Below are positions 1,687 to 15,987 of a stretch of 24,000 nucleotides of DNA, piece after piece. The notes under the pieces were generated by a model. The model searched no databases, was not told the origin of the DNA, and worked only from the letters and a program-made list of their open reading frames with translations. Source of the stretch: an uncultured bacterium (GTDB taxonomy: Bacteria > Patescibacteriota > Minisyncoccia > Minisyncoccales > Minisyncoccaceae). Made by a program: the position numbers and the translations under genes. Position 1 is the first letter of the stretch. Each line of letters starts with the position of its first letter. The DNA lies in the NCBI GenBank assembly GCA_963802195.1, contig CAWDHP010000003.1, positions 19,456 through 43,455 on the forward strand. Reading direction: 5' to 3'.

Positions 1687-1727
1687 ATGCTATTTGCATA
1701 TAATCATATGCAATTTGCATAAGATTG

Positions 1728-2105: not shown

Positions 2106-2149
2106 ATTATCATTGTATCAAAAAATCGCTGGAATAGCGATTTGTTGTA

Positions 2150-2686: not shown

Positions 2687-2703
2687 TATTTTTTAATTAT
2701 TAA

Positions 2704-3186
2704 TTATGGTTCCCAATATTCCCCGCTTCTTAATATTTTTCCTACTCCTATCTTACCATCAAATACAATAATTTCCACTCTTGCCTCTCGAAGCATCGCA
2801 AAAGCAAAGTCTATATCCTCTTGCCAGTGTCCATTCCTATCTAAAGCTTGTTTGTGGATCACTAGCTTTTTAATGCCAGCTTGAATTATAGCTTGAGCAC
2901 AATCACTACATGTTGCCCAGGGACAAACCATAGTGAGTCCTTCTGTTTTTATTCCTAATCTAGCGGCAGAGTAAATAACATTCCTTTCGGCATGAACGCT
3001 GTATTTGTATCTTATGGCTTTATCGTTTTGCCTTTCTTCTGTTTCAGCTATCCCGTTAGGAAAATTATTAGTCTCTGAAAGAATAATATTTTGATTATCG
3101 TCAATTAAAATAGCCGCATTCTGCGTTGATATATTAGTGCTTTTTTGAGCTTTTTCGTATGCTATTTTAAGGAGTTGTTGCCACAT
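2704..3186 (-). CDS. CMP/dCMP deaminase (deoxycytidylate deaminase-like)
   Basis: HAERNVIY (H-A-E) and CPWATCSDCAQAI (PCxxC) zinc-ligand motifs of the cytidine/deoxycytidylate deaminase fold. Confidence 0.8.
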   Translation of the reverse strand: MWQQLLKIAYEKAQKSTNISTQNAAILIDDNQNIILSETNNFPNGIAETEERQNDKAIRYKYSVHAERNVIYSAARLGIKTEGLTMVCPWATCSDCAQAIIQAGIKKLVIHKQALDRNGHWQEDIDFAFAMLREARVEIIVFDGKIGVGKILRSGEYWEP

Positions 3187-3380
3187 GCTGTGATGGTCAG
3201 TCTGGAACCCCTAACCTTCAATCAGTGTAAGAGTTATTTGACTATTTAATATTGATTAATTTGAAGGGTCTCAGTCGGGATAAAATGAGACAAATGAGAC
3301 AGTATAAAAGGATATGTACCCTGTCTCGTGGACACTGTCTCGTTTTTTATAACTTACCATAATTTTTATCTTTGTGAAAG

Positions 3381-3418
3381 AATTGTAAGTAAAAAAAGAA
3401 GGAGATTTTTGATATCGA
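3381..3418 (-). terminator. intrinsic terminator after the radical SAM gene
   Basis: On the minus strand, AGGAGAT (3418-3412) pairs with ATCTCCT (3396-3390) and is followed by a TTCTTTTTTT tract. The same ATCTCCTTCTTTTTT tail recurs at 8769-8784. Confidence 0.6.
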
Positions 3419-3454
3419 AGTATCTCCTATGATTAACTTCGGAAGCTTAAAGCT

Positions 3455-4702
3455 TCAACCCTTAACTGTTTCCCACCCTTTTGGCAATGGCCAGAAAAGA
3501 TGGTTTTTCGCGTAAAATTTGAGATCGGCTAACGTGGGCGCGATGCGGTGGTTATTGAATAAGACCGATGTCTCAAATTCACAACCAACAGTTATTGCGA
3601 CATCTTCAGTCGCGACCTCATTTGGAGGTAACTCGACGAGGTACCCTTCCTCGGTCACGCGAATAGACAAAGGATGGTATCCCAACCATGTGAGGTATTT
3701 TTCAATCTCATCTGGATTAACTTTCCTCCACTGGCCGAGTTCTCCTGAGCGGGATAGGTTGTTGCGATTATATGCAATCGGCATACTGAACTCATCCCGA
3801 TACAATGTACCTGTATGCCGATGAACCCTAACATCGTACATGATTGAGGCACAGAGGACCGCCTTTTCAGCTTTTTCAGACAGCCAGTTTTTCATTTTGT
3901 AATACTGGTGTCCGCCCGGACTTGATTCTTCGTTTTGGTTGCCGTCGAGGAATCCTGTCTCGCGAAGCTTGTCGTTTTCGGGAGTAATGCCGAGATTTCC
4001 GATACTGCAACCACGATAGGTCAGAAATCTGATTCCCATCATTGCCAAATCGAAAATCGTTTCGACGCCCTTCATAACGTTATTATCGTTAAGTGGTCCA
4101 AGCATGACGGAAATCCGTCTTGGGGAAATTCCGGCATCGAGAAGCATCTGAAGACCCTCCAGTTGCTGTGGCGACTTAATCGGACTTCCCCTGAACTCTG
4201 GGCTGTCAGGCGTGATTGTAGTGCTAAACACTACACGAGGGTCATCCCCCCACGCTTCAAGCTGTTTTTGCCCGAATGGGGCACGGTGCAGAACGAAGAC
4301 TGGACTTTTGTGCGGAAATATCCGTAAAAATTCCGTAATTTCATTTACCTGCATGCTTCCGTCAGACCGAGCAGCCAGCATGATAATATCTCGGCCAGCC
4401 TTGAATAATTTGGACTGTTCAAGGAATCGTACCGCCTGTCTTGGCGTTGCAATCTTGCGGAGGCCTTTTCTGCCCTTCCCGATAGTATCAACAGAATTGT
4501 TGATCCATCGGTAATAACAGAAGTCGCACCCGATGGTGCATCCCATGATAAGGTCTCCATCCCAAGTGTACCGCCGTTTATAAAACGGAGCGGGGCAGAC
4601 TTGGCATTCTCCTTTCCATTCTGGCGGGGTGCCACCTAATAAAAGGTGTTCTCCGTTGACTATATCTGCCGCCCTTGCGGCTGAGAAATCTTCAAAAGAC
4701 AT
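3455..4702 (-). CDS. radical SAM enzyme, SplB/COG1533-like (spore-photoproduct-lyase-like family)
   Basis: MGCTIGCDFCYYRW contains CxxxCxxC in the GCxxGCxxCYxR context typical of SplB-like radical SAM proteins. AGGAGG lies 6 nt upstream of the ATG. The start abuts the upstream stop (TAAATG). Confidence 0.75.
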   Translation of the reverse strand: MSFEDFSAARAADIVNGEHLLLGGTPPEWKGECQVCPAPFYKRRYTWDGDLIMGCTIGCDFCYYRWINNSVDTIGKGRKGLRKIATPRQAVRFLEQSKLFKAGRDIIMLAARSDGSMQVNEITEFLRIFPHKSPVFVLHRAPFGQKQLEAWGDDPRVVFSTTITPDSPEFRGSPIKSPQQLEGLQMLLDAGISPRRISVMLGPLNDNNVMKGVETIFDLAMMGIRFLTYRGCSIGNLGITPENDKLRETGFLDGNQNEESSPGGHQYYKMKNWLSEKAEKAVLCASIMYDVRVHRHTGTLYRDEFSMPIAYNRNNLSRSGELGQWRKVNPDEIEKYLTWLGYHPLSIRVTEEGYLVELPPNEVATEDVAITVGCEFETSVLFNNHRIAPTLADLKFYAKNHLFWPLPKGWETVKG

Positions 4703-6457
4703 TTATACCTCCTGTCCCAAAATTGGGGCAATTTCTTTTTTCAATTTACGACCAAGACTAATGGTCTTCTTTGGAGTGATTCCGAACGTACGCATATAGG
4801 TCAAGCGACTAAGGCGTTCATCGGAATTATCCTTGCGGCCGTCTTTGCCGTAAAGAGCAGAAAGTCCATCATCAAGCATTTGGGCTGCGACACCATCCTG
4901 GTACGCAGCTTTGCAAATACTTTCAGAGCATCCTAATGCTTCAGCAATCATCAGCCGGAAAGAAGCCTCCTTCATCACTACCTTGCCCCAGAGTTCTGTC
5001 TGAGTCAGCTCGGTACTGAATTTAGGATTTTCTATTTCTACTTCAAGTCGAGCTGCGAGAATTACTTCACGAACGCGCTCCTCGAAAGTGGTTATACCGA
5101 GTTCGACGGCGATATTTCTTGCTCTTCCAAGGTCGTATGCCGCCTGCTCAATAGTTTGCCATACTCCGTTGATTACCCAGAACGCTGGCGCATAGTCACG
5201 GACTTCGTCCTCATCAATGAGGTCGTCCATGATTTTGAATGCCTTGCGCAGGTGTTCAACAAGCTGGCAGATTTCCTCAACATCCTTTTCGTTCCGTTTT
5301 CCAAGAACAGAGAGTTTTCTCACTTTCTTGGCGTAACTTCCGGAAGTCGGGACATCTATCCATGGCCGCGGGTTTTCAAGACTCTTTTGGTAGAAAGAGT
5401 CGATTGCCCCGACTTTTTCTAACCAATCCATTCTATTAACCTCCACTTTTGTAGCTCCGCGATTCTTTGCCACTTGCACTGCAGCTTGCTGCACAAGCTT
5501 CTTCGTGGCCTCGACTGATTTAGAGGCGAATATCCACGATAATACTTCGTGCATTCCGGAAATTAACCTGTCAGGAAGATTGATGTGGCAAGTATTACCT
5601 TCGTATTTTACCGAACACCCTGTGGTCTTGACGGTAAAGTCAGCAAAGCTCACCACATCAAGGGCGCCGATTTTGCGTAAGAGCTCCAGACGTTCCGAAT
5701 CAACAGAATCGTCAAAGTCCCCGCGCCTCTCAGCTTCCCTCTGTCGTTCATCTTCATCTCTCCTAACAGAGATAACGATTACTGGCCGTTGTAAAGCATA
5801 GCTCGCGTATATGATTTGTTCGCGAGACTTGATGCCATCAACAACCATGAACGGCGAATCGTCATTTACCGAAGAAACAAACCTGCGGGCGACAACAATT
5901 TTGTCTTTCGCCTCAACCTCTTCGGTGAAGCACTGGACATTGGTCCAATTCATTTCGCCATAACGGGATTCTATCTCCTGCTTTACATAGTCTCCCCATT
6001 TGTAGACGGAGAATCCGTCCATCTGGGAAAAAATGTTCCGCAGAAGTGTCTTCCCTGATGCGGGCAGTCCGACCAGTGCAATCATGTACTTATCAATGTG
6101 ATAAGTATCTTGCTCTGATACACTTTCTTTCGGCACAATCCCCTCTTTCTTCAAGAGGTAATTTTGATGTCGATACGCCAGCAATGTTTTTTCGTTGCCG
6201 ACATACTTTACCGGCCCCTTAATACCTAAACTCCTTAACGATTTCTCGACATGGAGCTGGGTTAAGGCCGTGGTCAAATTCCGGTCAAAGACAAGAATCT
6301 CTCCGTACTTCTTTTTTTGTGGAAAGTTCCACCAGGTTACTTCCCTCTGATCCATGCGAGAGAAGTCTGCAATTGCAACCTCCCATTCGGGAGAAAGAAT
6401 ATTGCAATTCAATAACTCCACGCCTGACTTGGCGATTAAAACCGCAAGGGTTTTCAT
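4703..6457 (-). CDS. fusion protein: unknown N-domain, P-loop nucleotide kinase (adenylate/dephospho-CoA-kinase-like) and a divergent polyprenyl-synthase-like C-domain
   Basis: Walker A in IALVGLPASGKT. The block VVDGIKSREQ...RRDEDERQREAERRGDFDD resembles small archaeal-type nucleotide kinases. The C-terminal MDDLIDEDEVRDYAPAFW (DDxxDxxxxR...P) and GVAAQMLDDGLSALYGKDGRKDNSDE resemble the two Asp-rich motifs of trans-prenyl synthases, with the second degenerate. I prefer the ATG at 6457 (GAGG 7 nt upstream) over the TTG at 6499 used by the ORF track. Confidence 0.6.
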   Translation of the reverse strand: MKTLAVLIAKSGVELLNCNILSPEWEVAIADFSRMDQREVTWWNFPQKKKYGEILVFDRNLTTALTQLHVEKSLRSLGIKGPVKYVGNEKTLLAYRHQNYLLKKEGIVPKESVSEQDTYHIDKYMIALVGLPASGKTLLRNIFSQMDGFSVYKWGDYVKQEIESRYGEMNWTNVQCFTEEVEAKDKIVVARRFVSSVNDDSPFMVVDGIKSREQIIYASYALQRPVIVISVRRDEDERQREAERRGDFDDSVDSERLELLRKIGALDVVSFADFTVKTTGCSVKYEGNTCHINLPDRLISGMHEVLSWIFASKSVEATKKLVQQAAVQVAKNRGATKVEVNRMDWLEKVGAIDSFYQKSLENPRPWIDVPTSGSYAKKVRKLSVLGKRNEKDVEEICQLVEHLRKAFKIMDDLIDEDEVRDYAPAFWVINGVWQTIEQAAYDLGRARNIAVELGITTFEERVREVILAARLEVEIENPKFSTELTQTELWGKVVMKEASFRLMIAEALGCSESICKAAYQDGVAAQMLDDGLSALYGKDGRKDNSDERLSRLTYMRTFGITPKKTISLGRKLKKEIAPILGQEV

Positions 6458-7148
6458 TCTAAACCTCGTAATCGTAAGTTGCCATGTTTCAGGCAACAAA
6501 CTAAAGATGTAAATCTCCAGATTGTTACCTGAAACTCTACCTATTTAATTTTCAAACAGCATCCTCCTGCTTCTCTCGGCTCCAATCTCTCCATTGGAAG
6601 CCGAGAGTATAGCAAGGAGGTTTCTGGAAACGAAGCGGGTTAAACTTCCTTTCCAGCCAATCTCCCTACTAGAAGACGGCAAACGATATTAGCCAGTTGA
6701 TAATCTTTTCATTTATACTCTCTCCAGTATGATGACGATTACCTAACATTCTTGCTAAAAGCTAATATCGGACAGGCAGTAATTGGTGTTTTACTGCTTT
6801 AGGACCTTAAGTCTATCACCATAATAGACTTTCGTTCCTTTGATTTTTAACAAAGAGCTATTCTTCTCGAAATTCTTCCGAGAAGATTTTTAAAGATTTT
6901 ATCTTTAACATATCTTTCCGCAAAAAAACGGCTGAGAAATCTCTTCAAAGGACAGACTCAAGATAGAATCCTTCCTTAAAAGAGATCTCCCAGCCGTTCG
7001 AATAAACAACTAGTATCTATTACTCCATTCGGAATGCAGACAGACCTCAGCCTGATTCCTTATCCCTTTCGGGAAAGAAGTAACGGGTCCATTATTTAAC
7101 CTCGCGGACGAGCGAAGAACTAACATCTAATTTAATGAACTCACTTAC
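6458..7148 (-). ncRNA. large structured leader RNA, copy A (paralogue of 10445-11180)
   Basis: About 690 nt between the promoter at 7155-7183 and the kinase-fusion ATG, with no conserved ORF. Hairpins are dense, including a long hairpin at 6929-6996 followed by U7. The core 6614-6846 aligns with 10575-10785 and shows compensatory stem changes. The 5' end is inferred from the promoter only. Confidence 0.5.
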
Positions 7149-7154
7149 ACGATA

Positions 7155-7183
7155 ACTATATACTACTATCTGCTTCTTGTCAA
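7155..7183 (-). promoter_or_regulatory. sigma70-type promoter driving leader A and the kinase-radical SAM operon
   Basis: Minus strand reads TTGACA (7183-7178), a 17-nt spacer, then TATAGT (7160-7155). Confidence 0.65.
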
Positions 7184-7190
7184 CCCCCAA

Positions 7191-7199
7191 TTATCCACA
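7191..7199 (+). promoter_or_regulatory. perfect DnaA-box 9-mer TTATCCACA, 7 nt upstream of the -35 element
   Basis: Exact match to the consensus TTATCCACA. The same 9-mer occurs at the same spacing at 11223-11231 and 11338-11346. Confidence 0.45.
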
Positions 7200-7200
7200 T

Positions 7201-7253
7201 CCTGCTTTCGTCCTTTTGGACTCATCAGCTCGGACACACATCCGAGGAGCAAG
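7201..7253 (-). ncRNA. type III hammerhead ribozyme (HHR-1)
   Basis: Minus strand reads CUUGC-UC/CUCGGA-UGUGUG-UCCGAG-CUGAUGA-GUCC-AAAA-GGAC-GAAA-GCAGG. The full CUGAUGA...GAAA core is present. Stems I and II are closed and stem III is open (CUUGC/GCAGG). Predicted cleavage is after C7247. Confidence 0.85.
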
Positions 7254-7317
7254 TGTAATTTATTTTTTTAAAAAATTACTAAAAAATTAACCCTACTATA
7301 CTGCCCAAGTAATTGGC

Positions 7318-8523
7318 TTAAACATTTTTTACTGTAAATCCAGCATTTTTGAATCCCTCAGCCAAGGACGTTGGTTCATCCTTAATCTGAATATCGTTAA
7401 GACCGAAGATCTTTTCAATCTCGACCTTGGATGGAGTAATGGGTGTGATTCCGTCCCATGGCTCCGTGCGAATGCCGTTGGCTACCCACCGTACATAGTG
7501 GTGGATTCCTCCGGCATTAGCGAGTACATAGGATGTTATTTCTCCATCCTTGTACTCTATCCACGCAGAGTGCCAATCGGGCGCTTCAACGATAGCTAGA
7601 ATACTCTCGCTGTTGAATGGTCTCTCGCAGGATTCCTTTATTCGGGTGATACCCGATTCAGAAATTTTCTCGAACCGGTAGCGCTTGCCACCACCCGGAC
7701 CGATGCAGAGAGATATTAATGCTTTCGTGCCAGGAATCAGTGTGCCAGCTTGCACACTGCTGACGCCACCGATCTTATCGCCCATGACGACGGGAATGGC
7801 AATGCCCCAGTTTTTTACGGTTTGCTCTATCGGTTGCCACTGTGTGAAGTGGTTAACCAGAACATTCATTTCGGGGCTGATTGCTTCCTCAAGTTCTTCT
7901 GCTAGTTTAATCGCGGACTGAACGTCCTCGTGAAGCTCTCCAGTAAACTGCTTTACAACTTCCGTTACCTCGGGATTATCATCAGTGGCGATTGTTTGGC
8001 AGAGTTCTTCGCGGGTCATTGCGACTGCGTTGAAACTCCTAGTCACAATGAGGTAGCGCTGACCGTAGCCTTTGTATGATCCCCCGCAGATGTTCACGAT
8101 GAACACCGATGGAGATTCAATATGCCACAGCTCATCAGTTCCGCCACCAATTCTACCGGCATCGCCGAAGGCATAAGAACCAGTGACTAACAGTTTAGCT
8201 TCGCCACCCTTGTGGACGACATTACCCTCTGTCCCACGGGTGTACGTTCCATACGTGTTTATTCGTATGAGTACACCGCGTTGGTTGGGGTTGCTTTTGG
8301 TCAATATGCAATGCTTCCTTTCCTCCCCAAAGAGGAAATATCCGACATCATCGGGTCCGGACGGTTGTTGTCCGGAACGATTAGAAATTCGGACTTCTTC
8401 AAGCCACCGGCCTCGGCCAGCCTCTCCCAAAGAGAACGGAATCTCCTGGGTCCTTCCGTGCATGTCAATTATTTTCATTCCTTTCACTCCATTCTTGCCC
8501 CTAAAGCGTATCTTCGTGGGCAT
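7318..8523 (-). CDS. hypothetical protein (386-401 aa), no recognisable family
   Basis: Long intact ORF in GC-rich cargo. The start is either ATG 8523 (no SD) or ATG 8478 (GGAGTGAAAGGA upstream). Gly-rich loops are present (GDAGRIGGGTD, CGGSYKGYG, GPGGGKRY). Confidence 0.6.
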   Translation of the reverse strand: MPTKIRFRGKNGVKGMKIIDMHGRTQEIPFSLGEAGRGRWLEEVRISNRSGQQPSGPDDVGYFLFGEERKHCILTKSNPNQRGVLIRINTYGTYTRGTEGNVVHKGGEAKLLVTGSYAFGDAGRIGGGTDELWHIESPSVFIVNICGGSYKGYGQRYLIVTRSFNAVAMTREELCQTIATDDNPEVTEVVKQFTGELHEDVQSAIKLAEELEEAISPEMNVLVNHFTQWQPIEQTVKNWGIAIPVVMGDKIGGVSSVQAGTLIPGTKALISLCIGPGGGKRYRFEKISESGITRIKESCERPFNSESILAIVEAPDWHSAWIEYKDGEITSYVLANAGGIHHYVRWVANGIRTEPWDGITPITPSKVEIEKIFGLNDIQIKDEPTSLAEGFKNAGFTVKNV

Positions 8524-8768
8524 GAATTATGTTTGCTCATTAAGAGCGTACAATTTTAAAATATTATTTAAGACTGTGCGCTCTCAACAAACTCTATTTA
8601 AAGAACTATTATCAATTAAATCAGCAGTGAACCGTAAAGCAATTAGCGAGGGGTTTGAATGTATTATATTCTGGAGAGAGATTAGAATATATCCAATACC
8701 TCTCCTGCTTTACGGATCGCTACTGATTGTTTCTCAATTCTGAATCCACTTTTATTAAAATGAACTCG

Positions 8769-8816
8769 GAAAAAAGAAGGAGATAATGTTTAAACATTTA
8801 ACGGGTCTCCATCTCC
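8769..8816 (-). terminator. intrinsic terminator after the P-loop NTPase gene
   Basis: On the minus strand, GGAGAT (8816-8811) pairs with ATCTCC (8784-8779). The inner palindrome AATGTTTAAACATT is followed by TTCTTTTTTC. The 5' arm overlaps the stop codon. Confidence 0.5.
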
Positions 8817-9403
8817 GTTATCAGCCAATCTGCAAACTGACTAATAATACCCTGATAGGGATCCTTTGGACCGTCTCGGTCCAAATTACAGATAATCCCT
8901 CGAATGGGTTCGGCAGAAAAATCCGCCGAAGATCCTACATTGTTATCAAGCGTCCCATCCGCCCGCTTGATAAGCCGAGACTCAAATAATGCGAGAGTCT
9001 CACACCCTTCTTCTTTGGCAAAATTCTGCCAAAGCTCATTCTCTTCTTCTTTCGAAGAAAGAAGAATAAGGTGCGTTGACCGCTTGAGAATCTCGGCATT
9101 CTCAGCAGTCCGTCTTCCCCCAAGATCTAGGAGGACCAAGGGAAACGATTTTCCCAAGTTCTCAATGGACTTCAGAGTGAAACCCATGAATTCTTGAGAA
9201 AATGCTCCTTTCCTCCGAATTTCAGAGACAAGGCGCGGGTCAGTCTCTGCTGACCACATACCTTCTCCATCGGGACATGCCCTTTGGAGAAAGACTCTCG
9301 TTGCCTTCCTTGCCAAAAGCTGACGATATAGCTCGGCAAGGAAGACTGACTTCCCTGAATGTGGAGGCCCTCCCACGGCCACCACCATTTTTTTAGTGGC
9401 CAT
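8798..9403 (-). CDS. P-loop NTPase of the type found fused to Csx3 (Csx3-associated AAA/kinase-like)
   Basis: Walker A in VAVGGPPHSGKS and Walker B in LVLLDLGG. AAGGAGG SD. The gene lies directly downstream of the Csx3 gene. The link to Csx3-AAA fusions is recalled from the literature, not searched. Confidence 0.65.
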   Translation of the reverse strand: MATKKMVVAVGGPPHSGKSVFLAELYRQLLARKATRVFLQRACPDGEGMWSAETDPRLVSEIRRKGAFSQEFMGFTLKSIENLGKSFPLVLLDLGGRRTAENAEILKRSTHLILLSSKEEENELWQNFAKEEGCETLALFESRLIKRADGTLDNNVGSSADFSAEPIRGIICNLDRDGPKDPYQGIISQFADWLITEMETR

Positions 9404-9462
9404 AGTAGCCTCCTTTAGTGCTTTTTATACTTTTGCACAAAAAGTTTTTTCATTCCCTGATT

Positions 9463-9765
9463 TTACTCAGGGAACGGTATTACATTTCCGACCTGCTGGT
9501 CGGGAGAGTGGGTGGCAACGACCACTGCGCCAAGGCGCGGATCGCGAACTGCCAACCACGGTGTGGCATGGGCAGCATGCACTAACATGCTGTATAGCCA
9601 TACCGGACCCCGTCCGTCAAGGACGATCGGGGTTTCTCCACCGAGCTCACCGAGCTCAGTGACCGCTTCCTGAGATTCCTGGGGAGTTGTTACTCCGCCC
9701 GGAATCTCGAATCCTACCACCCGGATGCCGTTAGCATCACGGGTGGAAAATACTGGTTTCGACAT
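9463..9765 (-). CDS. csx3: Csx3 (Crn3) family protein, distant-CARF ring-nuclease fold
   Basis: LDGRGPVWLYSMLVHAAHATPWLAVRDPRLGAVVVATHSP closely matches the block I recall from A. fulgidus Csx3 (SGRGPIWLHCFLAHKYHHTPFVAVYDPRLGAVVVQSHS). I prefer ATG 9765 (GGGAGG 9 nt upstream) over the TTG at 9792. Confidence 0.7.
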   Translation of the reverse strand: MSKPVFSTRDANGIRVVGFEIPGGVTTPQESQEAVTELGELGGETPIVLDGRGPVWLYSMLVHAAHATPWLAVRDPRLGAVVVATHSPDQQVGNVIPFPE

Positions 9766-9954
9766 TTTCCATACCTCCCGTTTCACCTTCAACGGGGACT
9801 TTGCTCTGCATCATCAAAAGGTGACTTTGATGATGACTCCCTTCATGGGAAGCGAGCTGACTACTTTTATAAATAATCAATTCGCTTTCCATAAAGCAAG
9901 AGTTAAATATTCAAACCTATTTTCCTTTTAATGAGCAACTTATATTTTACAATT

Positions 9955-10007
9955 CTGCTTTTCGTCCTTTTGGACTCATCAGCTCGGATACACATCCGAG
10001 AAAGCAA
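9955..10007 (-). ncRNA. type III hammerhead ribozyme (HHR-2)
   Basis: Minus strand reads UUGCU-UU/CUCGGA-UGUGUA-UCCGAG-CUGAUGA-GUCC-AAAA-GGAC-GAAA-AGCAG. The core is identical to HHR-1. Stem III is UUGCU/AGCAG. Predicted cleavage is after U10001. Confidence 0.85.
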
Positions 10008-10060
10008 TTTGAAGAGGAAGTTTTATATAGCGAGCCCTCTTCGTACCCGCTTTACCCTGG

Positions 10061-10444
10061 TTACCTTCCAGTCGGGAAAATAACCATTTTCCAGGGATCC
10101 TCCCTGTCTGAAACATAGACAGGACGGAATCCCTTCTCCTCTACGACCTTCTGAAAGGCCGGGAGGAGAAACCCTGCCTCTGGCGGGAAGTCCATTAGGA
10201 CCTCCCTCGTTGCCTCATCGGCAAAGAGGAAGGCCTCCTTCATGGCCCTTCCCAGCCAATCGCCGAAACGCTCTGCGCGCTCGACGATTTGTTGCCCTTC
10301 CACCACGTCCATGTGGCGGAAGAGAATCATTTCCTCCAGTTCCACCCGCAGGTGGACTGGAACTTCAGTCAGCGAAAATCGCTGGTGAAGTTTCTCCGCT
10401 CCCTCACGGGGGAGCGGGCTTACCCTTAAGATACTCTTCTGCAT
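10061..10444 (-). CDS. hypothetical protein (127 aa)
   Basis: GC-rich intact ORF. I prefer ATG 10444 (AAGGGGAG about 10 nt upstream) over the TTG at 10495. No recognisable motif. Confidence 0.5.
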   Translation of the reverse strand: MQKSILRVSPLPREGAEKLHQRFSLTEVPVHLRVELEEMILFRHMDVVEGQQIVERAERFGDWLGRAMKEAFLFADEATREVLMDFPPEAGFLLPAFQKVVEEKGFRPVYVSDREDPWKMVIFPTGR

Positions 10445-11180
10445 AATAATGACTCCCCTTCTTTTTCGGTAGAAGTAAACCGGTGCTTTTTCCAAGCAAC
10501 AATCTAGAGATATAAGTCTACAGATTGTTACTTAGAATGATTTTAAAATGAACCACTGACACTCCCTATCTCGTAAGGAGGTTTCTGGAAACGAAGTGGG
10601 TTAGGCCTCTTTTCCAGCCGATCTCCTTACTAGAAGAACGGTATACGATTTTTTAACCTTAGGCCATAACTCTCTCCAGACTTTCTTTGTCGCCTAAAAT
10701 TAATATATCGGACAGGCAAGCAATTGGTTTTTGCTGCTTTAGGACCTTGACCTATCACCATAATAGATCGCGTTCCTTTGATTTTGGTTTAAAGAACTAT
10801 ATCTTCTTTCTTGCGAAAGAAGGTGATGGATATGAGTCTTGTATTGTTTTAGCTCATTTCCATAACTTTCCTTCGTAATATATTGTAAAAGAGGGGGGAG
10901 ATTCAGAGTCCTAGGTGTAAACCCAAGGTTTAGGACGCTGTTCGGCAAGTCTCCCCGCTGCCGCTTCCGAATGGGTCTTCGGAAGAAAGTGGTAAAGATG
11001 ATACATATTCATCTCCACAACTTTCTTTCAAAAGAAAAAGGGGTAACAAATGTTGGGATACTGCATGAAAAGAGTACCTCAACACTTATTACCCCATAAC
11101 GGAATTAAAAGCGTTTATTGGCAATGCCTCTCTCCTTGCATTGACTTGGCTTATTTAATTTTTAATAACTTCATCCTAAC
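10445..11180 (-). ncRNA. large structured leader RNA, copy B (paralogue of 6458-7148)
   Basis: About 735 nt between the promoter at 11187-11215 and the ORF127 ATG. The core 10575-10785 is homologous to 6614-6846. Two long hairpins are followed by U-tracts (about 11036-11095 and 10895-10956). ORF-track ORFs in this region are not conserved in copy A. Confidence 0.5.
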
Positions 11181-11186
11181 AACTAT

Positions 11187-11215
11187 ACTATGACATACTA
11201 TCTATTTTCTGTCAA
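11187..11215 (-). promoter_or_regulatory. sigma70-type promoter P1 for leader B
   Basis: Minus strand reads TTGACA (11215-11210), a 17-nt spacer, then CATAGT (11192-11187). Confidence 0.55.
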
Positions 11216-11222
11216 GCTCCAG

Positions 11223-11231
11223 TTATCCACA
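11223..11231 (+). promoter_or_regulatory. perfect DnaA-box 9-mer TTATCCACA, 7 nt upstream of the P1 -35 element
   Basis: Exact 9-mer at the same spacing as at 7191-7199. Confidence 0.45.
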
Positions 11232-11301
11232 CCCTGATTTTTCTATGAATAACAAGGCTTTTCTTCTTTTCTGCCTCTCCTTTCTTTATCCTTACACCTA
11301 T

Positions 11302-11330
11302 ACCATAGCATAGTAGTATAATTATGTCAA
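11302..11330 (-). promoter_or_regulatory. sigma70-type promoter P2 (tandem with P1)
   Basis: Minus strand reads TTGACA (11330-11325), a 17-nt spacer, then TATGGT (11307-11302). Confidence 0.5.
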
Positions 11331-11337
11331 CACTCAG

Positions 11338-11346
11338 TTATCCACA
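11338..11346 (+). promoter_or_regulatory. perfect DnaA-box 9-mer TTATCCACA, 7 nt upstream of the P2 -35 element
   Basis: Exact 9-mer at the same spacing as the other two copies. Confidence 0.45.
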
Positions 11347-11451
11347 CCCTAGCTATCAAGTTTTTCAGTCTCCACTTTGTCTACATATGGGGTCTGGACT
11401 CCCTAGAGCTATTGCGTCATCCTTGTCCTTGAGATAATAAATAAAAACAAT

Positions 11452-12759
11452 ATGGAACGAATAATAAAAAGTATAAGTCAGTCCCCTATTCTTGATGCTC
11501 CAATCAAGTATTGTCTCTATGCTAGGAAATCGACTGAAGCGGAGGACAAGCAAGCTCTTTCAATAGAATCTCAAGTAAAGGAAATGTTATCTCTAGCCGA
11601 AAGAGACAACTTAGATATAGTTGAAATTAAAAGAGAATCGCATTCTTCAAAGGAAGTCGGACAAAGAGTAGTTTTCAACGAAATGATTAAAGAAATAAGA
11701 GAAGGAAAATATAATGGAATATTAACATGGGCGCCAGATAGGTTAAGCAGAAATGCTGGGGATCTAGGATCGATAGTAGATTTGATGGATCAGAAGCTTC
11801 TTATCGAAATAAGAACATACGGACAGAAGTTTACCAATAATCCAAATGAGAAGTTTCTTTTAATGATATTAGGCTCTCAAGCCAAACTAGAGAATGACAA
11901 TAAAGCAGTCAATGTTAAGCGAGGATTAAGGACTAGATGCGAAATGGGATTAAGACCAGGAGTTGCACCGACTGGCTATCTGAATGAAAAGCATGTTGAT
12001 AAGAAATGCCAATGCAGAATAGATTCTAAAAGAGCACCTATTATTAAACAGATGTTTGAAAAGGTGGCCAACGAGCAATGGAGCGGCAGGAAGATATTCC
12101 GATGGCTGATTGATATTGGATTCAAGACTAAAACCGGCAAGCCTTTAGTTCTTGCCAATATTTATCTCATCTTAAGAAATCCTTTTTATTATGGAGAATT
12201 TGAATACCCAATTAAAAGCGGTAATTGGTATATTGGTAAACATGTTCCGATTATAAATAAAGAGCTGTTTGATAAAGTGCAAATGACCCTCGGTGATAAT
12301 TTCATACCCAAAACAGAAAGCAAGGAATTCGCTTTTACCAAATTAATCAAATGCGGATATTGCGGATCAGGAATATCAGCTGATGAAAAGTTCAGAAAAT
12401 TAAAAAACGGCGGTACTAACCGTCATGTCTATTATTTTTGTACCAAGGCGAGAAATATTGATTGCAAAAATCAGCCGATAGATGAGGCAAACCTAATAAA
12501 CGAACTAGCAGAACTTGTAGACAAGATTGATTTAGATGAACTAGGGATAAGGGATAAAATTGAAAAAGAATTAATGAGATTTAATAAATTTAGAATCGGA
12601 GTGCTTGGGCATAAAAAAGAAGTAAGCAATTCAGATATTGATATCCGTAACTATGCTAAGTATTTATTAAAAGAAGGAACAATTACCGAAAAGCGAGAAC
12701 TCCTATCATTTTTAAAAAGTAAACTGGTATTAAAAGACAGAAAGATTATTCTTGGATAA
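11452..12759 (+). CDS. large serine recombinase (resolvase/invertase N-domain, recombinase domain and zinc ribbon)
   Basis: YCLYARKSTEAEDKQALSIESQ carries the catalytic Ser motif. Also present are GILTWAPDRLSRN and a C-terminal CGYCG...YYFC zinc-ribbon-like motif. The gene is AT-rich (line 12181-12240 has 17/60 G+C) and has no SD, so it is host-like, unlike the cargo. Confidence 0.85.
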   Translation: MERIIKSISQSPILDAPIKYCLYARKSTEAEDKQALSIESQVKEMLSLAERDNLDIVEIKRESHSSKEVGQRVVFNEMIKEIREGKYNGILTWAPDRLSRNAGDLGSIVDLMDQKLLIEIRTYGQKFTNNPNEKFLLMILGSQAKLENDNKAVNVKRGLRTRCEMGLRPGVAPTGYLNEKHVDKKCQCRIDSKRAPIIKQMFEKVANEQWSGRKIFRWLIDIGFKTKTGKPLVLANIYLILRNPFYYGEFEYPIKSGNWYIGKHVPIINKELFDKVQMTLGDNFIPKTESKEFAFTKLIKCGYCGSGISADEKFRKLKNGGTNRHVYYFCTKARNIDCKNQPIDEANLINELAELVDKIDLDELGIRDKIEKELMRFNKFRIGVLGHKKEVSNSDIDIRNYAKYLLKEGTITEKRELLSFLKSKLVLKDRKIILG

Positions 12760-12770
12760 GATTGCTAACT

Positions 12771-12799
12771 AAAAATCACTGGATAAACCAGTGATTTTC
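12771..12799 (+). terminator. intrinsic terminator after the recombinase gene
   Basis: AAATCACTGG (12773-12782) pairs with CCAGTGATTT (12788-12797) around the loop ATAAA. The stem is flanked by A and T runs. Confidence 0.6.
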
Positions 12800-12837
12800 A
12801 TGTATGCATCTCAGTCACCTGACTTAGCATAAGACGG

Positions 12838-12908
12838 CTGCGGGACTAGGATTCGGACCTAGATTGGGCGAGTCAAAGTCGCCAGTCCTACCGTTAGACG
12901 ATCCCGCA
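12838..12908 (-). tRNA. tRNA-Gln (anticodon UUG)
   Basis: Manual cloverleaf: acceptor UGCGGGA/UCCCGCA with the U1-A72 pair typical of bacterial tRNA-Gln; D arm GUCU-AACGGUA-GGAC; anticodon arm GGCGA-CUUUGAC-UCGCC; T arm CUAGG-UCCGAAU-CCUAG; discriminator G. CCA is not encoded. The T-loop reads UCC instead of the usual UUC. Confidence 0.8.
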
Positions 12909-12911
12909 ATA

Positions 12912-13592
12912 TTATAATGATTTTTCGCAAATACCTTCTATCCATCCAGTAATCATTCTATTAAGGTTAGTACTTTTATTAACCGTAACTCGTATTAATC
13001 CATAATAGTTGTTACCAGTATTTTTTCTTATAGTCTTTATTTTACTTTTCTTCAAGTAGGTCCTAATTTTTTTCGTTGATATTGAAAGAATATTAGACCA
13101 GTATACTTGAGCTCTTTTTATGTCAGCTGTTTCGTGAATATATAATTCGTAGACTAAGTCAGAACTATTTATCGAAAAGCTATTTTTTAACCATTTTATA
13201 AAAAGTAAAATCATTTTGGGATCAGAATTACTAAACTTAACTCCTGAATTTTTTCCATTTTCTTTTTCCTTTGATCCTTCAGCCCAATATAATGCTACTC
13301 CTATTAACCATAAATTTTCTTTATTAATACTTTTTACCTCCTTTCTTGCTTTTCTTTTTATCTCTTTTGTGATTTTTATTCTATTTCTTCTTCTAGCCGC
13401 TGCACCACGCAATCCACCTTCAATTCTTTTTTGGGTAGTTCTTTGGAATTGAGCTTTGGCTAATCCTACACTTCTTAACCATAAAGATAAGGTAGATCTA
13501 GCTATCGGTATTTTTTTCAAAATTTCTGAATAAGAAAAGCCTTCTTTTCTAAGTTTAATTGCTTTTTCTTTTTCTTCAATTTTAGGTATCAT
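12912..13592 (-). CDS. HTH-domain protein with possible LAGLIDADG-like homing-endonuclease domain
   Basis: The N-terminal EGFSYSEILKKIPIARSTLSLWLR is HTH-like. LWLIGVALYWAEGSK resembles a LAGLIDADG-type motif (weak, recalled). The stop codon is 3 nt from the tRNA-Gln 5' end. Confidence 0.45.
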   Translation of the reverse strand: MIPKIEEKEKAIKLRKEGFSYSEILKKIPIARSTLSLWLRSVGLAKAQFQRTTQKRIEGGLRGAAARRRNRIKITKEIKRKARKEVKSINKENLWLIGVALYWAEGSKEKENGKNSGVKFSNSDPKMILLFIKWLKNSFSINSSDLVYELYIHETADIKRAQVYWSNILSISTKKIRTYLKKSKIKTIRKNTGNNYYGLIRVTVNKSTNLNRMITGWIEGICEKSL

Positions 13593-13650
13593 ATGAACTA
13601 GGATTATTGTTTATTTAATAATATCATCCTAGTTTTAATATGTAAAGGTT

Positions 13651-14748: not shown

Positions 14749-14756
14749 ATATGAAT

Positions 14757-14785
14757 ATTCTATTATTTTTTCCCTTAAAAAGCAA
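14757..14785 (-). promoter_or_regulatory. dnaX promoter of leaderless type
   Basis: Minus strand reads TTGCTT (14785-14780), a 17-nt spacer, then TAGAAT (14762-14757), followed by only 8 nt before the ATG at 14748. No SD. Confidence 0.5.
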
Positions 14786-14810
14786 ATAAAAAAAGAGCAA
14801 TAGGCTCCGT

Positions 14811-15533: not shown

Positions 15534-15535
15534 AT

Positions 15536-15968: not shown

Positions 15969-15987
15969 ATCTGTTTTTACGTGAATT

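What the first reader, a model, noticed from the sequence alone, without database searches (positions are those of the whole stretch)
3381..12908. GC-rich, SD-using, RNA-dense cargo island with a serine recombinase next to tRNA-Gln: candidate undescribed system
Seen in the sequence: (1) Composition jumps between flank and cargo. Spot counts give 33/60 G+C at 4201-4260, against 17/60 at 16501-16560 and 17/60 inside the recombinase gene at 12181-12240. (2) All six cargo ORFs have GGAGG-type SD sites, while the flanking genes have none. (3) All cargo is on the minus strand, in two operons. Each operon starts with the same promoter module and a paralogous leader RNA of about 0.7 kb. Two hammerhead ribozymes punctuate them. 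(4) The protein set is Csx3 plus a P-loop NTPase, two orphans, a nucleotide kinase/prenyl-synthase-like fusion and an SplB-like radical SAM. No CRISPR-Cas, phage structural or conjugation genes are visible. Inference: this is an integrated element carrying an accessory system that combines nucleotide chemistry with structured RNAs. I do not recognise this combination as any described defence or anti-defence system. A promoter architecture shared with the host region (15061-15103) argues against a chimeric assembly.
Basis: partly seen in the sequence, partly recalled or inferred. Interest (0 to 1): 0.75.

Follow-up and report, generated by a model that had tools for sequence, protein, structure and literature searches.

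The report
Swappable gene island with RNA chassis
This is a real mobile gene island in an ultra-small (Patescibacteria) bacterium, and it matters because its foreign genes are expressed from a shared, previously undescribed set of RNA elements: a structured leader, hammerhead ribozymes and conserved junction hairpins.

Summary
The interpretation needs reshaping.

**What is there**
- Window ~3187-12835 is a ~9.65 kb integrative island. It lies beside tRNA-Gln and carries a CcrB-like large serine recombinase.
- A related Minisyncoccales MAG (L015) has the island at the same site, flanked there by ~65-nt direct repeats.
- Cargo ORFs are 46-58% GC, and five of the six have Shine-Dalgarno sites.
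- The recombinase, promoters, leaders and spacers are host-like (32-39% GC).

**RNA elements**
- Both hammerheads are genuine type III ribozymes. Across 11 copies, 13 of 17 pairs covary.
- The paralogous leaders contain a ~240-nt multi-helix RNA that is absent from Rfam. Pairing is 96.8%, and 14 pairs are compensatory.
- These RNAs are not specific to the six proteins. In 12 metagenomic loci the same promoter, leader and hammerhead chassis precedes different conflict-type cargo.

**Proteins**
- Csx3 is an apparently active Crn3 ring nuclease, paired with its known AAA partner.
- The radical SAM protein and the PRTase-like/NMP-kinase/polyprenyl-synthase-like protein form a conserved, uncharacterised module. 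It also occurs on mobile elements of thermophiles.
- The radical SAM protein is not SplB-like.

**Verdict:** a new variant of a known kind, namely a modular genomic island. It contains a new RNA motif and an undescribed enzyme module, and its function is only inferred.

The parts
3187..3454 (.). Left end of the island. It is non-coding and begins TGATGGTCAGTC. It holds inverted GAGACAG/CTGTCTC repeats and the terminator of the last cassette (about 3391-3427, minus strand).
   Evidence: Homology with L015 starts at 3187. In L015 the direct repeat abuts this same sequence. In the window the dCMP deaminase ATG (3186) abuts GCTG|TGATGG, so the left repeat is missing.
3455..4702 (-). Radical SAM enzyme of an uncharacterised family (415 aa; CxxxCxxC at C55/C59/C62).
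   Evidence: Weak Pfam Radical_SAM match. 88 homologues at 30-94% identity. AF2 pLDDT 95, with only distant structural matches (SkfB, NifB, SuiB, RlmN; TM <= 0.41).
4703..6457 (-). Three-part fusion protein (584 aa from ATG 6457): a PRTase-like N-terminus, an adenylate-kinase-like NMP kinase, and a polyprenyl-synthase-like C-terminus.
   Evidence: Weak Pfam AAA_18 and polyprenyl_synt matches. Foldseek places the middle domain with adenylate-kinase-related proteins (TM 0.72). DDxxDE..R and G..Q..DD are invariant. The gene is split into two in most relatives and fused again in Pyrococcus and Moorellales.
6458..7154 (-). Leader A (~0.69 kb). It contains an attenuator-like 21-bp hairpin followed by U7 (about 6919-7000), the structured core (6610-6867) and the junction hairpin (6493-6529).
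7155..7199 (-). Promoter P3: TGTGGATAA (identical to the DnaA-box consensus), then TTGACA, 17 nt, TATAGT.
   Evidence: 11 of 12 sigma-70 match. The module is conserved in eight loci.
7198..7254 (-). Type III hammerhead ribozyme A, lying between orf401 and promoter P3.
   Evidence: Rfam RF00008, 34.1 bits, E 2.5e-4. Covariation in the 11-sequence alignment.
7318..8523 (-). orf401, a Patescibacteria-specific protein of unknown function. It is a swappable cassette and has no SD site.
   Evidence: 37 homologues, found in varied contexts. In L015 it is replaced by diverged 192-aa and 292-aa ORFs.
8524..8797 (-). Inter-cassette spacer. It holds the terminator of the Csx3-AAA unit with a conserved 55-nt element (8730-8784), and a ~110-nt long-hairpin element (8597-8730).
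   Evidence: 92-99% identical in L007, L015, L016, L028, L029 and L031. Folding z-score -5.6. Inverted repeat I7.
8798..9403 (-). P-loop AAA partner of Csx3, the split form of the Csx3-AAA fusions.
   Evidence: PADLOC Csx3-AAA and AAA-Csx3 models, E 1e-32 to 1e-38.
9463..9792 (-). Csx3/Crn3 ring nuclease. The likely start is ATG 9765, giving 100 aa.
   Evidence: Pfam 80.4 bits and TIGR02579 81.9 bits, both above cut-off. Matches AF1864 in the PDB at 5e-14. H57, H60, D69, R71 and H80 are conserved.
9952..10008 (-). Type III hammerhead ribozyme B, lying between orf144 and Csx3.
   Evidence: 41 nt are 98% identical to ribozyme A. Rfam 21.3 bits. Stem III differs by compensatory changes.
10061..10444 (-). 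orf144, the first small ORF after the leader (127 aa from ATG 10444). It is nearly an orphan.
   Evidence: Only two real homologues among 1.8 billion representatives. 69% identical in L015. The link to Csx20-like proteins is not significant.
10445..11186 (-). Leader B, with the structured core (10571-10807) and the junction hairpin (10495-10531).
11187..11346 (-). Tandem promoters P2 (11187-11231) and P1 (11302-11346). Each has TGTGGATAACTG, then TTGACA, 17 nt, and a -10 box.
   Evidence: The tandem pair is conserved in L015, L025 and L031.
11452..12759 (+). Large serine recombinase (Resolvase, Recombinase and Zn-ribbon domains). Its GC content is host-like.
   Evidence: Pfam. Best NCBIfam match is CcrB, below cut-off. 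PHROG integrase 3.5e-64. 94% identical in L015 and 80% in L033.
12767..12838 (.). Right attachment region. It comprises a terminator hairpin and then CATGTATGCATCTCAGTCACCTGACTTAGCATAAGACGGCTG, which abuts the 3' end of tRNA-Gln.
   Evidence: The sequence is present at both ends of the island in L015.
12836..12908 (-). tRNA-Gln(UUG). This is the host gene beside the integration site and is not part of the island.
   Evidence: ARAGORN and Rfam.

Best explanation
**Identity.** The region is a ~9.65 kb integrative genomic island in a low-GC Patescibacteria (Minisyncoccales-like) chromosome. It was inserted at the 3' flank of tRNA-Gln by its own CcrB-like large serine recombinase. It belongs to a family of modular cassette islands.

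**Chassis and cargo.** The AT-rich, host-adapted chassis carries GC-rich, SD-bearing foreign genes that are exchanged between islands. The chassis consists of:
- the recombinase;
- sigma-70 promoters preceded by TGTGGATAA;
- a ~0.7 kb leader holding an attenuator hairpin and a ~240-nt multi-helix core;
- type III hammerheads;
- conserved terminator, spacer and hairpin junctions.

**Likely workings at the RNA level.** Transcription starts at the module promoters. The leader gates read-through and/or translation. Its 3' hairpin pairs UAAGGAG with CUCCUUA, which are SD-like and anti-SD-like sequences. The hammerheads cut the polycistronic RNA after the first small ORF and in front of the next unit. 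This uncouples the leader-bearing 5' part from downstream mRNAs, which would then begin with a 5'-OH.

**Likely workings at the protein level.** The cargo here has two modules and is most likely a conflict (defence or counter-defence) set.
- A Crn3/Csx3 ring nuclease with its AAA partner, predicted to bind and cleave cyclic tetra-adenylate.
- A conserved radical SAM enzyme with a PRTase-like/NMP-kinase/polyprenyl-synthase-like enzyme, predicted to make or modify a small phosphorylated molecule derived from a nucleotide or a prenyl diphosphate.

**Shown:** island status, modularity, the RNA structures and the protein family assignments.

**Inferred:** ribozyme cleavage in vivo, the regulatory role of the leader, the chemistry of the enzyme module, and its role in conflict.
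For: **Integration and mobility**
- L015 is syntenic with the window. It has ~65-nt direct repeats at both island ends, and the island is more conserved than the flanks.
- The recombinase has the full large-serine-recombinase domain set.
- L007, L027 and L029 share one host flank (GreA and AspRS) but carry different cargo.

**Chassis against cargo**
- GC content and SD use split along this line.
- The promoter module recurs in eight loci.
- Junction elements are 92-99% identical between loci.

**Leader**
- 54 pairs in 7 helices, with 96.8% of cells paired against 38-50% in slid controls.
- 14 pairs have compensatory changes against 1-6 in slid controls, and 0 of 500 shuffles reach the observed values.
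- No Rfam match.
- The leader precedes variable cargo in 12 metagenomic loci.
- The 5' part folds with z-score -6.6 and ends in a hairpin followed by U7.

**Hammerheads**
- 11 distinct copies, 97.9% paired, 13 of 17 pairs compensatory, and an invariant core.

**Csx3**
- Scores above family cut-offs and keeps the catalytic residues.
- The AAA partner matches the Csx3-AAA models.

**Enzyme module**
- It co-occurs with Csx3 and AAA or SAVED proteins in six distinct locus types.
- The radical SAM plus fusion pair is conserved on Pyrococcus and Moorellales mobile regions.
- The kinase fold is supported, as are the polyprenyl-synthase-type motifs.
Against: - No excised form and no empty site was seen. 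In the window the left direct repeat is missing, so this copy may be fixed.
- Serine recombinases do not need long repeats, so the meaning of the repeats is uncertain.
- Neither hammerhead reaches Rfam's gathering score, and cleavage is untested.
- No cyclase (Cas10 or CD-NTase) is visible that could make the Crn3 substrate.
- PADLOC recognises nothing in the island except Csx3 and AAA.
- The fusion model is of low confidence in its C-terminal domain.
- The radical SAM and polyprenyl Pfam matches are below gathering cut-offs.
- Only eight loci were found among 185,579 species genomes, several of them on short contigs binned with unrelated organisms.
Confidence: 0.55

Rival explanations
1. Counter-defence island. 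The element is a mobile parasite whose cargo disarms host immune signalling. Crn3 here, and the Csx20-like, SAVED-like and DHH/CYTH proteins in sister islands, would destroy or soak up cyclic-nucleotide alarm signals, as the viral ring nuclease AcrIII-1 does. The enzyme module would restore or alter nucleotide pools.
For: - The cargo is enriched in signal-degrading or signal-binding accessory families with no cyclase nearby.
- Csx3 keeps all its catalytic residues.
- The elements are mobile.
- The radical SAM family sits in plasmid- or virus-like regions of Pyrococcus and Moorellales.
Against: - Sister islands also carry typical defence-type cargo, namely MoxR-vWA and a DEAH helicase.
- No homologue was found in phage, plasmid or viral-contig collections.
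- The copy in the window seems fixed in the chromosome.
Confidence: 0.2
2. A dedicated RNA-protein system. The leaders and hammerheads would be functional partners of exactly these six proteins, for example RNA substrates or scaffolds for Csx3, the kinase and the radical SAM enzyme.
For: - Both operons carry the leader, and a hammerhead sits directly before Csx3 in the window, L015 and L028, and before the kinase gene in L010.
- Csx3 was first described as an RNA-binding deadenylase (PMC7371418).
- Hammerhead products carry 5'-OH and 2',3'-cyclic phosphate ends that kinases and phosphodiesterases could act on (general knowledge).
Against: - The leader and hammerheads precede unrelated cargo.
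- The leader hairpin is absent from L011, L013 and L020, which carry the same proteins, and from the thermophile loci.
- orf401 and orf144 are variable.
Confidence: 0.1
3. An ordinary metabolic island. The kinase, polyprenyl-synthase-like and radical SAM proteins would form a small biosynthetic pathway (isoprenoid, cofactor or modified nucleoside) that benefits a metabolically poor host, with no role in conflict. Csx3 and AAA would be hitch-hikers.
For: - Polyprenyl-synthase signature motifs are conserved.
- The kinase fold also matches animal-type phosphomevalonate kinase.
- The radical SAM protein is very strongly conserved, at 58-94% identity.
- Patescibacteria gain functions through islands (PMC12455944).
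Against: - The module is repeatedly linked with Csx3, AAA and SAVED proteins.
- It is rare and patchy, with 8 loci in 185,579 species genomes.
- It sits in mobile or variable regions.
- No other pathway genes are present.
Confidence: 0.12
4. Assembly chimera or contamination: a GC-rich fragment from another organism joined to a low-GC contig.
For: - The GC content jumps sharply.
- Identical genes assemble as short separate contigs in other runs.
- Homologous contigs are binned with unrelated organisms.
Against: - An independent MAG from another study has the same junctions and the same host flanks.
- The AT-rich chassis elements are interleaved with the GC-rich ORFs throughout the island.
- The promoters and the recombinase are host-like in composition.
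Confidence: 0.02

Closest known systems
Genomic islands moved by large serine recombinases, such as the SCC elements of staphylococci, which also carry anti-phage cargo (PMC11470126)
   Same: Both have a CcrB-like large serine recombinase at one end and insert next to a conserved host gene. Both are flanked by direct repeats (seen here in L015) and carry modular, exchangeable cargo.
   Different: The host phylum differs, and the target is the 3' flank of tRNA-Gln. The recombinase scores far below the CcrB cut-off (134.7 against 900 bits). The cargo is expressed from a conserved RNA chassis that SCC elements lack.
Crn3/Csx3 ring nuclease and the Csx3-AAA accessory proteins of type III CRISPR-Cas (PMC7371418, PMC6546367, PMC12409355)
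   Same: The Csx3 domain scores above family cut-offs, and H57, H60, D69, R71 and H80 are conserved. The neighbouring P-loop protein matches the AAA half of the Csx3-AAA fusions.
   Different: The two are separate genes rather than a fusion. No cas genes or CRISPR array lie within 24 kb. The pair sits on a mobile island in a phylum that mostly lacks CRISPR-Cas.
Type III hammerhead ribozymes (Rfam RF00008)
   Same: The CUGAUGA...GAAA core is complete. Stems I and II are closed and stem III is open. The cleavage site follows the NUH rule (UC or UU). All three stems covary.
   Different: The scores fall below Rfam's gathering cut-off. The ribozymes sit at fixed positions between cistrons of island operons, where they appear to punctuate the mRNA.
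Integron cassette arrays
   Same: Both are arrays of swappable, mostly single-gene cassettes separated by conserved palindromic junction elements and sitting next to a site-specific recombinase. The platform is host-adapted and the cargo is foreign.
   Different: There is no IntI tyrosine recombinase and no recognisable attC or attI. The junctions include terminators and RNA hairpins. Cassette exchange could simply be homologous recombination at the 92-99% identical spacers.
Prokaryotic viperins with adjacent nucleotide kinases (recalled from general knowledge, not tested here)
   Same: Both pair a radical SAM enzyme with an NMP-kinase-type enzyme on variable or defence-type islands. This suggests production of a modified nucleotide.
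   Different: There is no sequence or close structural match to viperin. The best PDB matches are SkfB, NifB, SuiB and RlmN at TM <= 0.41. The partner also carries PRTase-like and polyprenyl-synthase-like domains.
Large structured non-coding RNAs and cis-regulatory leaders associated with mobile elements (for example riboswitch-attenuator leaders, ROOL, GOLLD, HEARO)
   Same: All are long, multi-helix RNAs supported by covariation and found on mobile DNA. This one sits upstream of operons and is preceded by an attenuator-like terminator.
   Different: It matches none of the 4227 Rfam families at E <= 5. It has its own invariant features: UGGU and ACCA loops, a CUAACCC loop, and a UAAGGAG/CUCCUUA helix.

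Membership tests
Hammerhead ribozyme, type III (RF00008) | Score at or above Rfam's gathering cut-off (48.5 bits) | tested here: not met
   34.1 bits (7200-7254) and 21.3 bits (9954-9994). No related copy passes the cut-off either.
Hammerhead ribozyme, type III (RF00008) | Conserved catalytic core (CUGAUGA ... GAAA), an NUH cleavage site, and three helices with stem III open | tested here: met
   The core is invariant in 11 copies. The cleavage nucleotide (H) is C, U or A. 97.9% of cells are paired and 13 of 17 pairs have compensatory changes.
Hammerhead ribozyme, type III (RF00008) | Self-cleavage | not testable with these tools
   Needs in vitro transcription or mapping of RNA ends.
Crn3/Csx3 ring nuclease | Csx3 domain above the curated cut-offs | tested here: met
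   PF09620, 80.4 bits against a cut-off of 21. TIGR02579, 81.9 bits against 55.4. AF1864 in the PDB at E 5e-14.
Crn3/Csx3 ring nuclease | Catalytic and binding residues H57, H60, D69, R71 and H80 (A. fulgidus numbering) | tested here: met
   All five align to identical residues. Their roles are taken from PMC7371418.
Crn3/Csx3 ring nuclease | Association with a type III CRISPR-Cas locus | tested here: not met
   No cas gene or CRISPR array in the 24 kb window or in the related loci.
Csx3-AAA accessory protein (clusters 35 and 67 of PMC6546367) | Csx3 domain and AAA ATPase in a single polypeptide | tested here: not met
   Both halves match the fusion models (E 1e-19 and 1e-32), but they are adjacent separate genes at 9463-9792 and 8798-9403.
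Large serine recombinase | Resolvase catalytic domain plus Recombinase domain plus zinc ribbon | tested here: met
   PF00239 1.3e-19, PF07508 1e-15, PF13408 2e-07, all above cut-offs. PHROG integrase 3.5e-64.
SCC-type element (CcrB) | Recombinase reaches the CcrB equivalog cut-off | tested here: not met
   134.7 bits against a cut-off of 900. CcrB is only the closest named relative.
Integrative genomic island | Flanking direct repeats, plus variable presence or an occupied site compared with an empty one | tested here: inconclusive
   Repeats of ~65 nt flank the island in L015, but the left one is missing in the window. Cargo differs at a shared site in L007, L027 and L029. No empty tRNA-Gln site could be searched for.
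Radical SAM superfamily | CxxxCxxC cluster motif and the partial TIM-barrel fold | tested here: met
   C55, C59 and C62 are invariant in 62 sequences. The AF2 model (pLDDT 95) matches radical SAM enzymes at probability 1.0. The Pfam score of 20 is below the cut-off of 29.5.
SplB-like radical SAM (spore photoproduct lyase / DNA repair photolyase) | Sequence or structural match to SplB-type enzymes | tested here: not met
   No SplB family appears in Pfam, NCBIfam or the PDB sequence search. The top structural matches are SkfB, NifB, SuiB and RlmN.
Polyprenyl synthetase (PF00348) | Pfam gathering score | tested here: not met
   19.4 bits against a cut-off of 27. Weak matches recur in the separate 240-aa homologues.
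Polyprenyl synthetase (PF00348) | Two aspartate-rich motifs: DDxxD..R, and GxxxQxxDD | tested here: met
   D66, D67, D70, E71, R75 and G177, Q181, D184, D185 are invariant across bacterial and archaeal members. The comparison with the PROSITE signatures is from memory.
Known anti-phage systems (PADLOC-DB 2.0) | Model matches for the components | tested here: not met
   Only Csx3 and its AAA partner match. The radical SAM protein, the fusion, orf401, orf144 and the recombinase have no match at E <= 0.1.
Any described RNA family (Rfam 15) | Covariance-model match to the leader | tested here: not met
   No match at the gathering threshold, and nothing relevant at E <= 5 over 3000-13000.
Integron | IntI tyrosine recombinase and attC sites | tested here: not met
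   The only recombinase is a serine recombinase. attC models were not available.

The most novel reading that the evidence does not exclude
The ~240-nt leader core, with its upstream attenuator, may be a new class of sensing RNA. It could be a riboswitch or a protein- or signal-responsive switch, responding for example to a cyclic oligoadenylate, to replication stress through the DnaA-box promoter, or to the product of the enzyme module. Together with the hammerheads and junction hairpins it would form an RNA-level expression platform for capturing and switching on foreign conflict genes in Patescibacteria. That would be an RNA counterpart of the integron. In the same reading, the radical SAM plus PRTase/kinase/prenyl-synthase module makes a previously unknown antiviral or signalling small molecule.
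Probability: 0.25. Interest if true: 0.85.

Novelty: new variant of a known kind. Interest (0 to 1): 0.62.

Why it matters
Patescibacteria are abundant, ultra-small, mostly uncultured bacteria that largely lack CRISPR-Cas. How they handle phages and mobile DNA is poorly understood.

This island family shows three things:
- They keep a host-adapted platform that expresses foreign, GC-rich genes with a different mode of translation initiation.
- That platform is built from structured RNAs, including a new RNA motif and self-cleaving ribozymes at fixed operon positions.
- Proteins of cyclic-oligoadenylate signalling circulate on these islands without any visible cyclase.

The finding also highlights a conserved radical SAM and kinase/prenyl-synthase enzyme pair, shared between Patescibacteria and mobile elements of thermophilic archaea and Firmicutes, whose chemistry is unknown.

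Each of these points can be tested directly with standard biochemistry.

Tried and rejected
**Searches that found nothing**
- Viral-contig scans with orf401, the radical SAM protein and the leader pattern.
- tblastn of the radical SAM protein against phage and plasmid collections.
- Rfam at gathering and E-value thresholds. It found only tRNAs and the sub-threshold hammerheads. Nothing matched the leader or the 1.4 kb non-coding stretch at 14.7-16.2 kb.
- PADLOC, NCBIfam and PHROGs gave nothing specific for the radical SAM protein, the fusion, orf401 or orf144.

**Ideas rejected or left open**
- 'SplB-like' is rejected.
- orf144 as a Csx20-like ring nuclease is inconclusive. BLASTP gives E 0.43, only two true homologues exist, and the third hit is a spurious eukaryotic CENP-I.
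- An integron reading is rejected because there is no IntI.
- Treating the leader as specific to the enzyme system is rejected. The covariance model of its 3' hairpin finds no copy in L011, L013, L020 or L022-L024.
- The promoter similarity to host region 15061-15103 is judged too weak to carry an argument.
- A chimeric assembly is rejected on the synteny with L015.

**Tools and data that were unavailable**
- DNA for the Logan contigs that carry identical proteins.

Full report
**1. The observation**

The composition jump is real. The block 3455-10495 is 46.4% GC, against 32.7% and 33.8% in the flanks.

The rise is confined to the cargo ORFs:

| Segment | GC |
|---|---|
| rSAM | 48% |
| kinase fusion | 46% |
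| orf401 | 49% |
| AAA | 48% |
| Csx3 | 58% |
| orf144 | 56% |
| leaders | 39% |
| spacer 8524-8797 | 32% |
| promoter region | 37% |
| recombinase | 35% |

So the non-coding elements and the recombinase are host-like in composition.

Five of the six cargo ORFs have an SD-like site once the likely ATG starts are used. orf401 has none. Only 1 of 19 flank genes shows even a weak match, and the recombinase has none.

All cargo is on the minus strand. The promoter module occurs three times, and these are the three best sigma-70 matches in the region. The two leaders share a ~260-nt core at 73% identity plus a short hairpin just upstream of the ORF.

Rfam reports two type III hammerheads below its gathering score, at 34.1 and 21.3 bits against 48.5. 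No CRISPR array is present.

**2. The hammerheads are genuine**

Eleven distinct copies were collected from the window and related loci. All keep CUGAUGA...GAAA and the U16.1-A15.1 pair. All three stems vary by compensatory changes. For example, stem II is GUCC/GGAC, GGAC/GUCC, GCCC/GGGC or GGCC/GGCC.

On the alignment, 97.9% of cells pair, against 29-47% when partners are slid. Thirteen of 17 pairs show changes on both sides, against 1-5 in the slid controls.

In the window, one ribozyme lies between orf144 and Csx3. The other lies between orf401 and the next promoter. In L010 a copy lies directly before the kinase gene. In L028, L030 and L033 a copy follows the first small ORF after the leader.

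**3. The leader contains a new structured RNA**

Ten diverged copies support a fold of seven helices and 54 pairs.
- 96.8% of cells are paired, against 38-50% in slid controls.
- 14 pairs have compensatory changes, against 1-6 in slid controls.
- None of 500 shuffles reaches any of the five observed measures.

Invariant features are:
- loop sequences UGGU and ACCA, which could pair with each other (no covariation is possible, so this is untested);
- a CUAACCC loop;
- a terminal helix pairing UAAGGAG with CUCCUUA, which resemble an SD site and the 16S anti-SD sequence.

Upstream of the core, the leader folds strongly (z-score -6.6) and contains a 21-bp hairpin followed by U7. That is an attenuator-like terminator. 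Nothing in Rfam 15 matches the leader.

**4. It is an integrated island, not a chimera**

The only genome-collection locus with near-identical genes is L015, a Minisyncoccales MAG from another study. It is syntenic with the window on both sides, with dnaX and tRNA-Gln on one side and dCMP deaminase on the other.
- Host flanks are 75-81% identical.
- The island is 85-88% identical.

In L015 a ~65-nt sequence occurs at both ends of the island. It comprises a terminator hairpin followed by CATGT..CACCTGACTTAG.ATAAGACGGCTG. One copy abuts the 3' end of tRNA-Gln. The other abuts TGATGGTCAGTC, which is the island's left end and corresponds to window 3190.

In the window the left copy, and a 283-aa ORF present in L015, are missing. 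The dCMP deaminase start codon abuts GCTG|TGATGG. This copy may therefore no longer be able to excise.

The recombinase has the full large-serine-recombinase domain set. Its closest named family is CcrB, far below that family's cut-off.

Identical proteins occur on separate Logan assemblies and on a 75 kb NCBI/ENA contig.

**5. The proteins**

*Csx3.* It scores above the Pfam and NCBIfam cut-offs and matches A. fulgidus Csx3 structures. H57, H60, D69, R71 and H80 all align to identical residues. Those residues are needed for cA4 cleavage (PMC7371418).

*AAA partner.* The 201-aa P-loop protein matches the AAA half of the catalogued Csx3-AAA and AAA-Csx3 fusions, at E 1e-32 to 1e-38. The function of these fusions is unknown (PMC6546367, PMC12409355).

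*Radical SAM protein.* It has an invariant CxxxCxxC motif. Its AF2 model is excellent (pLDDT 95), yet it resembles solved radical SAM enzymes only distantly (TM <= 0.41). It has no SplB match.

*Fusion protein.* It has three parts.
- An N-terminal domain whose ILVFDRNLTT / VILVDSTVVSGVT motif resembles the PRPP loop of phosphoribosyltransferases. This rests on my reading of the sequence, not on a tool result.
- An adenylate-kinase-like NMP kinase (TM 0.72 to 3lw7/3h0k).
- A C-terminal helical domain with invariant DDxxDE..R and G..Q..DD motifs, as in polyprenyl synthases.

*orf401.* It has 37 homologues, all in Patescibacteria.

*orf144.* It has two real homologues among 1.8 billion representatives.

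**6. What belongs together**

The kinase-like, prenyl-synthase-like and radical SAM genes always travel together, either as three genes or as two when the first two are fused. In Patescibacteria they lie next to Csx3 with AAA, or next to a Csx3 fusion with a SAVED-like protein, in six distinct locus types.

The radical SAM family has 88 members and reaches Thermus, Fervidicola, Hydrogenobacter, Pyrobaculum, Pyrococcus and Moorellales. In the two thermophile loci examined (Pyrococcus and Moorellales), the radical SAM gene is followed by a fused kinase/prenyl-like protein inside plasmid- or virus-like regions, with no Csx3 recorded nearby.

orf401 is independent of this set.
- It occurs alone among housekeeping genes in other contigs. 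In one low-GC genome it is again GC-elevated there.
- It is replaced by two diverged ORFs in L015.

**7. The RNAs belong to the island chassis, not to these proteins**

An exact pattern for the leader's 3' hairpin found 12 metagenomic loci and no viral contig. Downstream cargo differs from locus to locus:
- Csx3 with AAA, a MoxR-like ATPase and a DEAH helicase (L028);
- MoxR with vWA (L033);
- an APH-like protein, an AAA_33 kinase, a DHH protein and a CYTH protein (L027);
- a class-V aminotransferase with radical SAM-like proteins (L031);
- a radical SAM activase-like protein with an AAA ATPase (L032);
- first small ORFs that are Csx20-like (L025, L031) or that match 'Unk_01', a small protein sometimes fused to CARF (L030).

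L007, L027 and L029 share the same host flank (GreA and AspRS) but carry different cargo.

A covariance model of the hairpin finds 19 copies at 65-88 bits. It finds none in L011, L013 or L020, which carry the same enzyme module, and none in the thermophile loci.

The promoter module GGG-TGTGGATAA-(6-7 nt)-TTGACA-(17 nt)-TAtaGT is conserved in eight loci. Where a leader core lies downstream it sits 527-737 nt away (15 of 17 copies). TGTGGATAA is the reverse complement of the DnaA-box consensus TTATCCACA (general knowledge). Whether DnaA binds it is unknown.

The inter-cassette elements are 92-99% identical between loci, which is more conserved than the genes they separate. They are:
- a terminator followed by a 55-nt element;
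- a ~110-nt long hairpin;
- a junction hairpin.

Such conserved spacers would allow cassettes to be exchanged by homologous recombination.

**8. How it most likely works**

*Shown:*
- an integrative island;
- a host-like chassis carrying foreign cargo;
- real RNA structures;
- the protein family assignments.

*Inferred:*
- Transcription from the module promoters passes an attenuator and the structured core. These would set how much RNA and translation reaches the cargo.
- The hammerheads cut the polycistronic RNA at fixed points. Downstream messages would then lose the leader and begin with a 5'-OH.
- Crn3 with its AAA partner handles cyclic tetra-adenylate.
- The radical SAM and kinase/prenyl-synthase pair makes or alters a small phosphorylated molecule.

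The company these genes keep points to a role in conflict with phages or other mobile DNA. That company includes Csx3, Csx20-like, SAVED, MoxR-vWA and helicase proteins, all in variable islands.

Whether the role is defence or counter-defence cannot be decided here. No cyclase is visible, which fits a signal-destroying (counter-defence) reading as well as a defence one.

**9. Comparison with what is known, and novelty**

Several components are known kinds: the island type, the recombinase, Csx3 with AAA, and the hammerhead class.

Four things appear to be new:
- the leader RNA motif;
- the conserved RNA chassis shared by islands with different cargo;
- the fixed operon positions of the hammerheads;
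- the uncharacterised radical SAM and kinase/prenyl-synthase module.

Literature searches found no description of hammerheads in Patescibacteria or of this gene combination. General island surveys of Patescibacteria do exist (PMC12455944).

I rate the finding a new variant of a known kind, with moderately high interest. Its function remains inferred.

Noticed in passing
window 14749-16148: A 1.4 kb stretch without ORFs lies between dnaX and the next gene. It holds three copies of TTTTTGTCAAA-type 20-mers spaced 182 and 173 nt apart (15342, 15524, 15697), each followed by GC-richer, hairpin-prone sequence. These may be small RNA genes or repeated promoters. No Rfam match at E <= 1.
   Followed up: partly
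window ~11000-15000: Gene orientation switches here, from minus-strand genes on the left to plus-strand genes on the right. The cumulative GC skew reaches its minimum near 14.5 kb. This may be a replication origin or terminus region. The only perfect DnaA-box 9-mers in the window are the three in the island promoters.
   Followed up: no
window 1-3186 and 12909-24000: Host genes essentially lack Shine-Dalgarno sites (1 weak match in 19 genes). The host probably starts translation in an SD-independent way, whereas five of the six island cargo genes keep SD sites.
   Followed up: partly
window 12912-13592 (minus strand): A 226-aa ORF lies next to tRNA-Gln. It has weak HTH matches at the N-terminus and a faint LAGLIDADG_3 match, so it may be a homing-endonuclease-like or regulatory protein.
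   Followed up: no
L015 11582-12757: The sister genome has an extra AT-rich 283-aa ORF between the left direct repeat and dCMP deaminase. The window lacks both the ORF and the repeat. The deletion endpoint lies within 4 nt of the repeat/island junction.
   Followed up: partly
L007 1-2424: A sister island carries other cassettes behind the same junction elements. They are a cysteine-rich 68-aa peptide, a 140-aa protein, and a 297-aa protein with an N-terminal cold-shock-like domain (weak matches to PADLOC CSD_V and to the retron Se72 effector).
   Followed up: partly
L010 14518-14575: A further type III hammerhead, with different stems, lies about 400 nt beyond an IS66-family transposase gene and outside the conserved gene set.
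   Followed up: no
L006 (62 kb Logan contig, ~65% GC): An orf401 homologue sits in a phage-like run of small same-strand ORFs that also includes a methyltransferase, Vsr, dCMP deaminase, NT5C and a 2'-5' RNA ligase. The family is therefore not restricted to low-GC hosts or to these islands.
   Followed up: no
L016, L017, L018, L020 (genome collection): Contigs carrying the enzyme module are binned as Smithella, Pacearchaeota, Thermoplasmata and Deltaproteobacteria. Two of them (L016, L018) are only 4-7 kb long. Their deviant GC content probably causes mis-binning, so taxonomic labels for this family should be treated with caution.
   Followed up: no
window 7318-7380 and L015 7340-7403: The C-terminus of orf401 (..SLAEGFKNAGFTVKNV) is conserved in the otherwise diverged 292-aa ORF that replaces it in L015. 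This suggests a shared C-terminal module, or recombination inside the gene.
   Followed up: no
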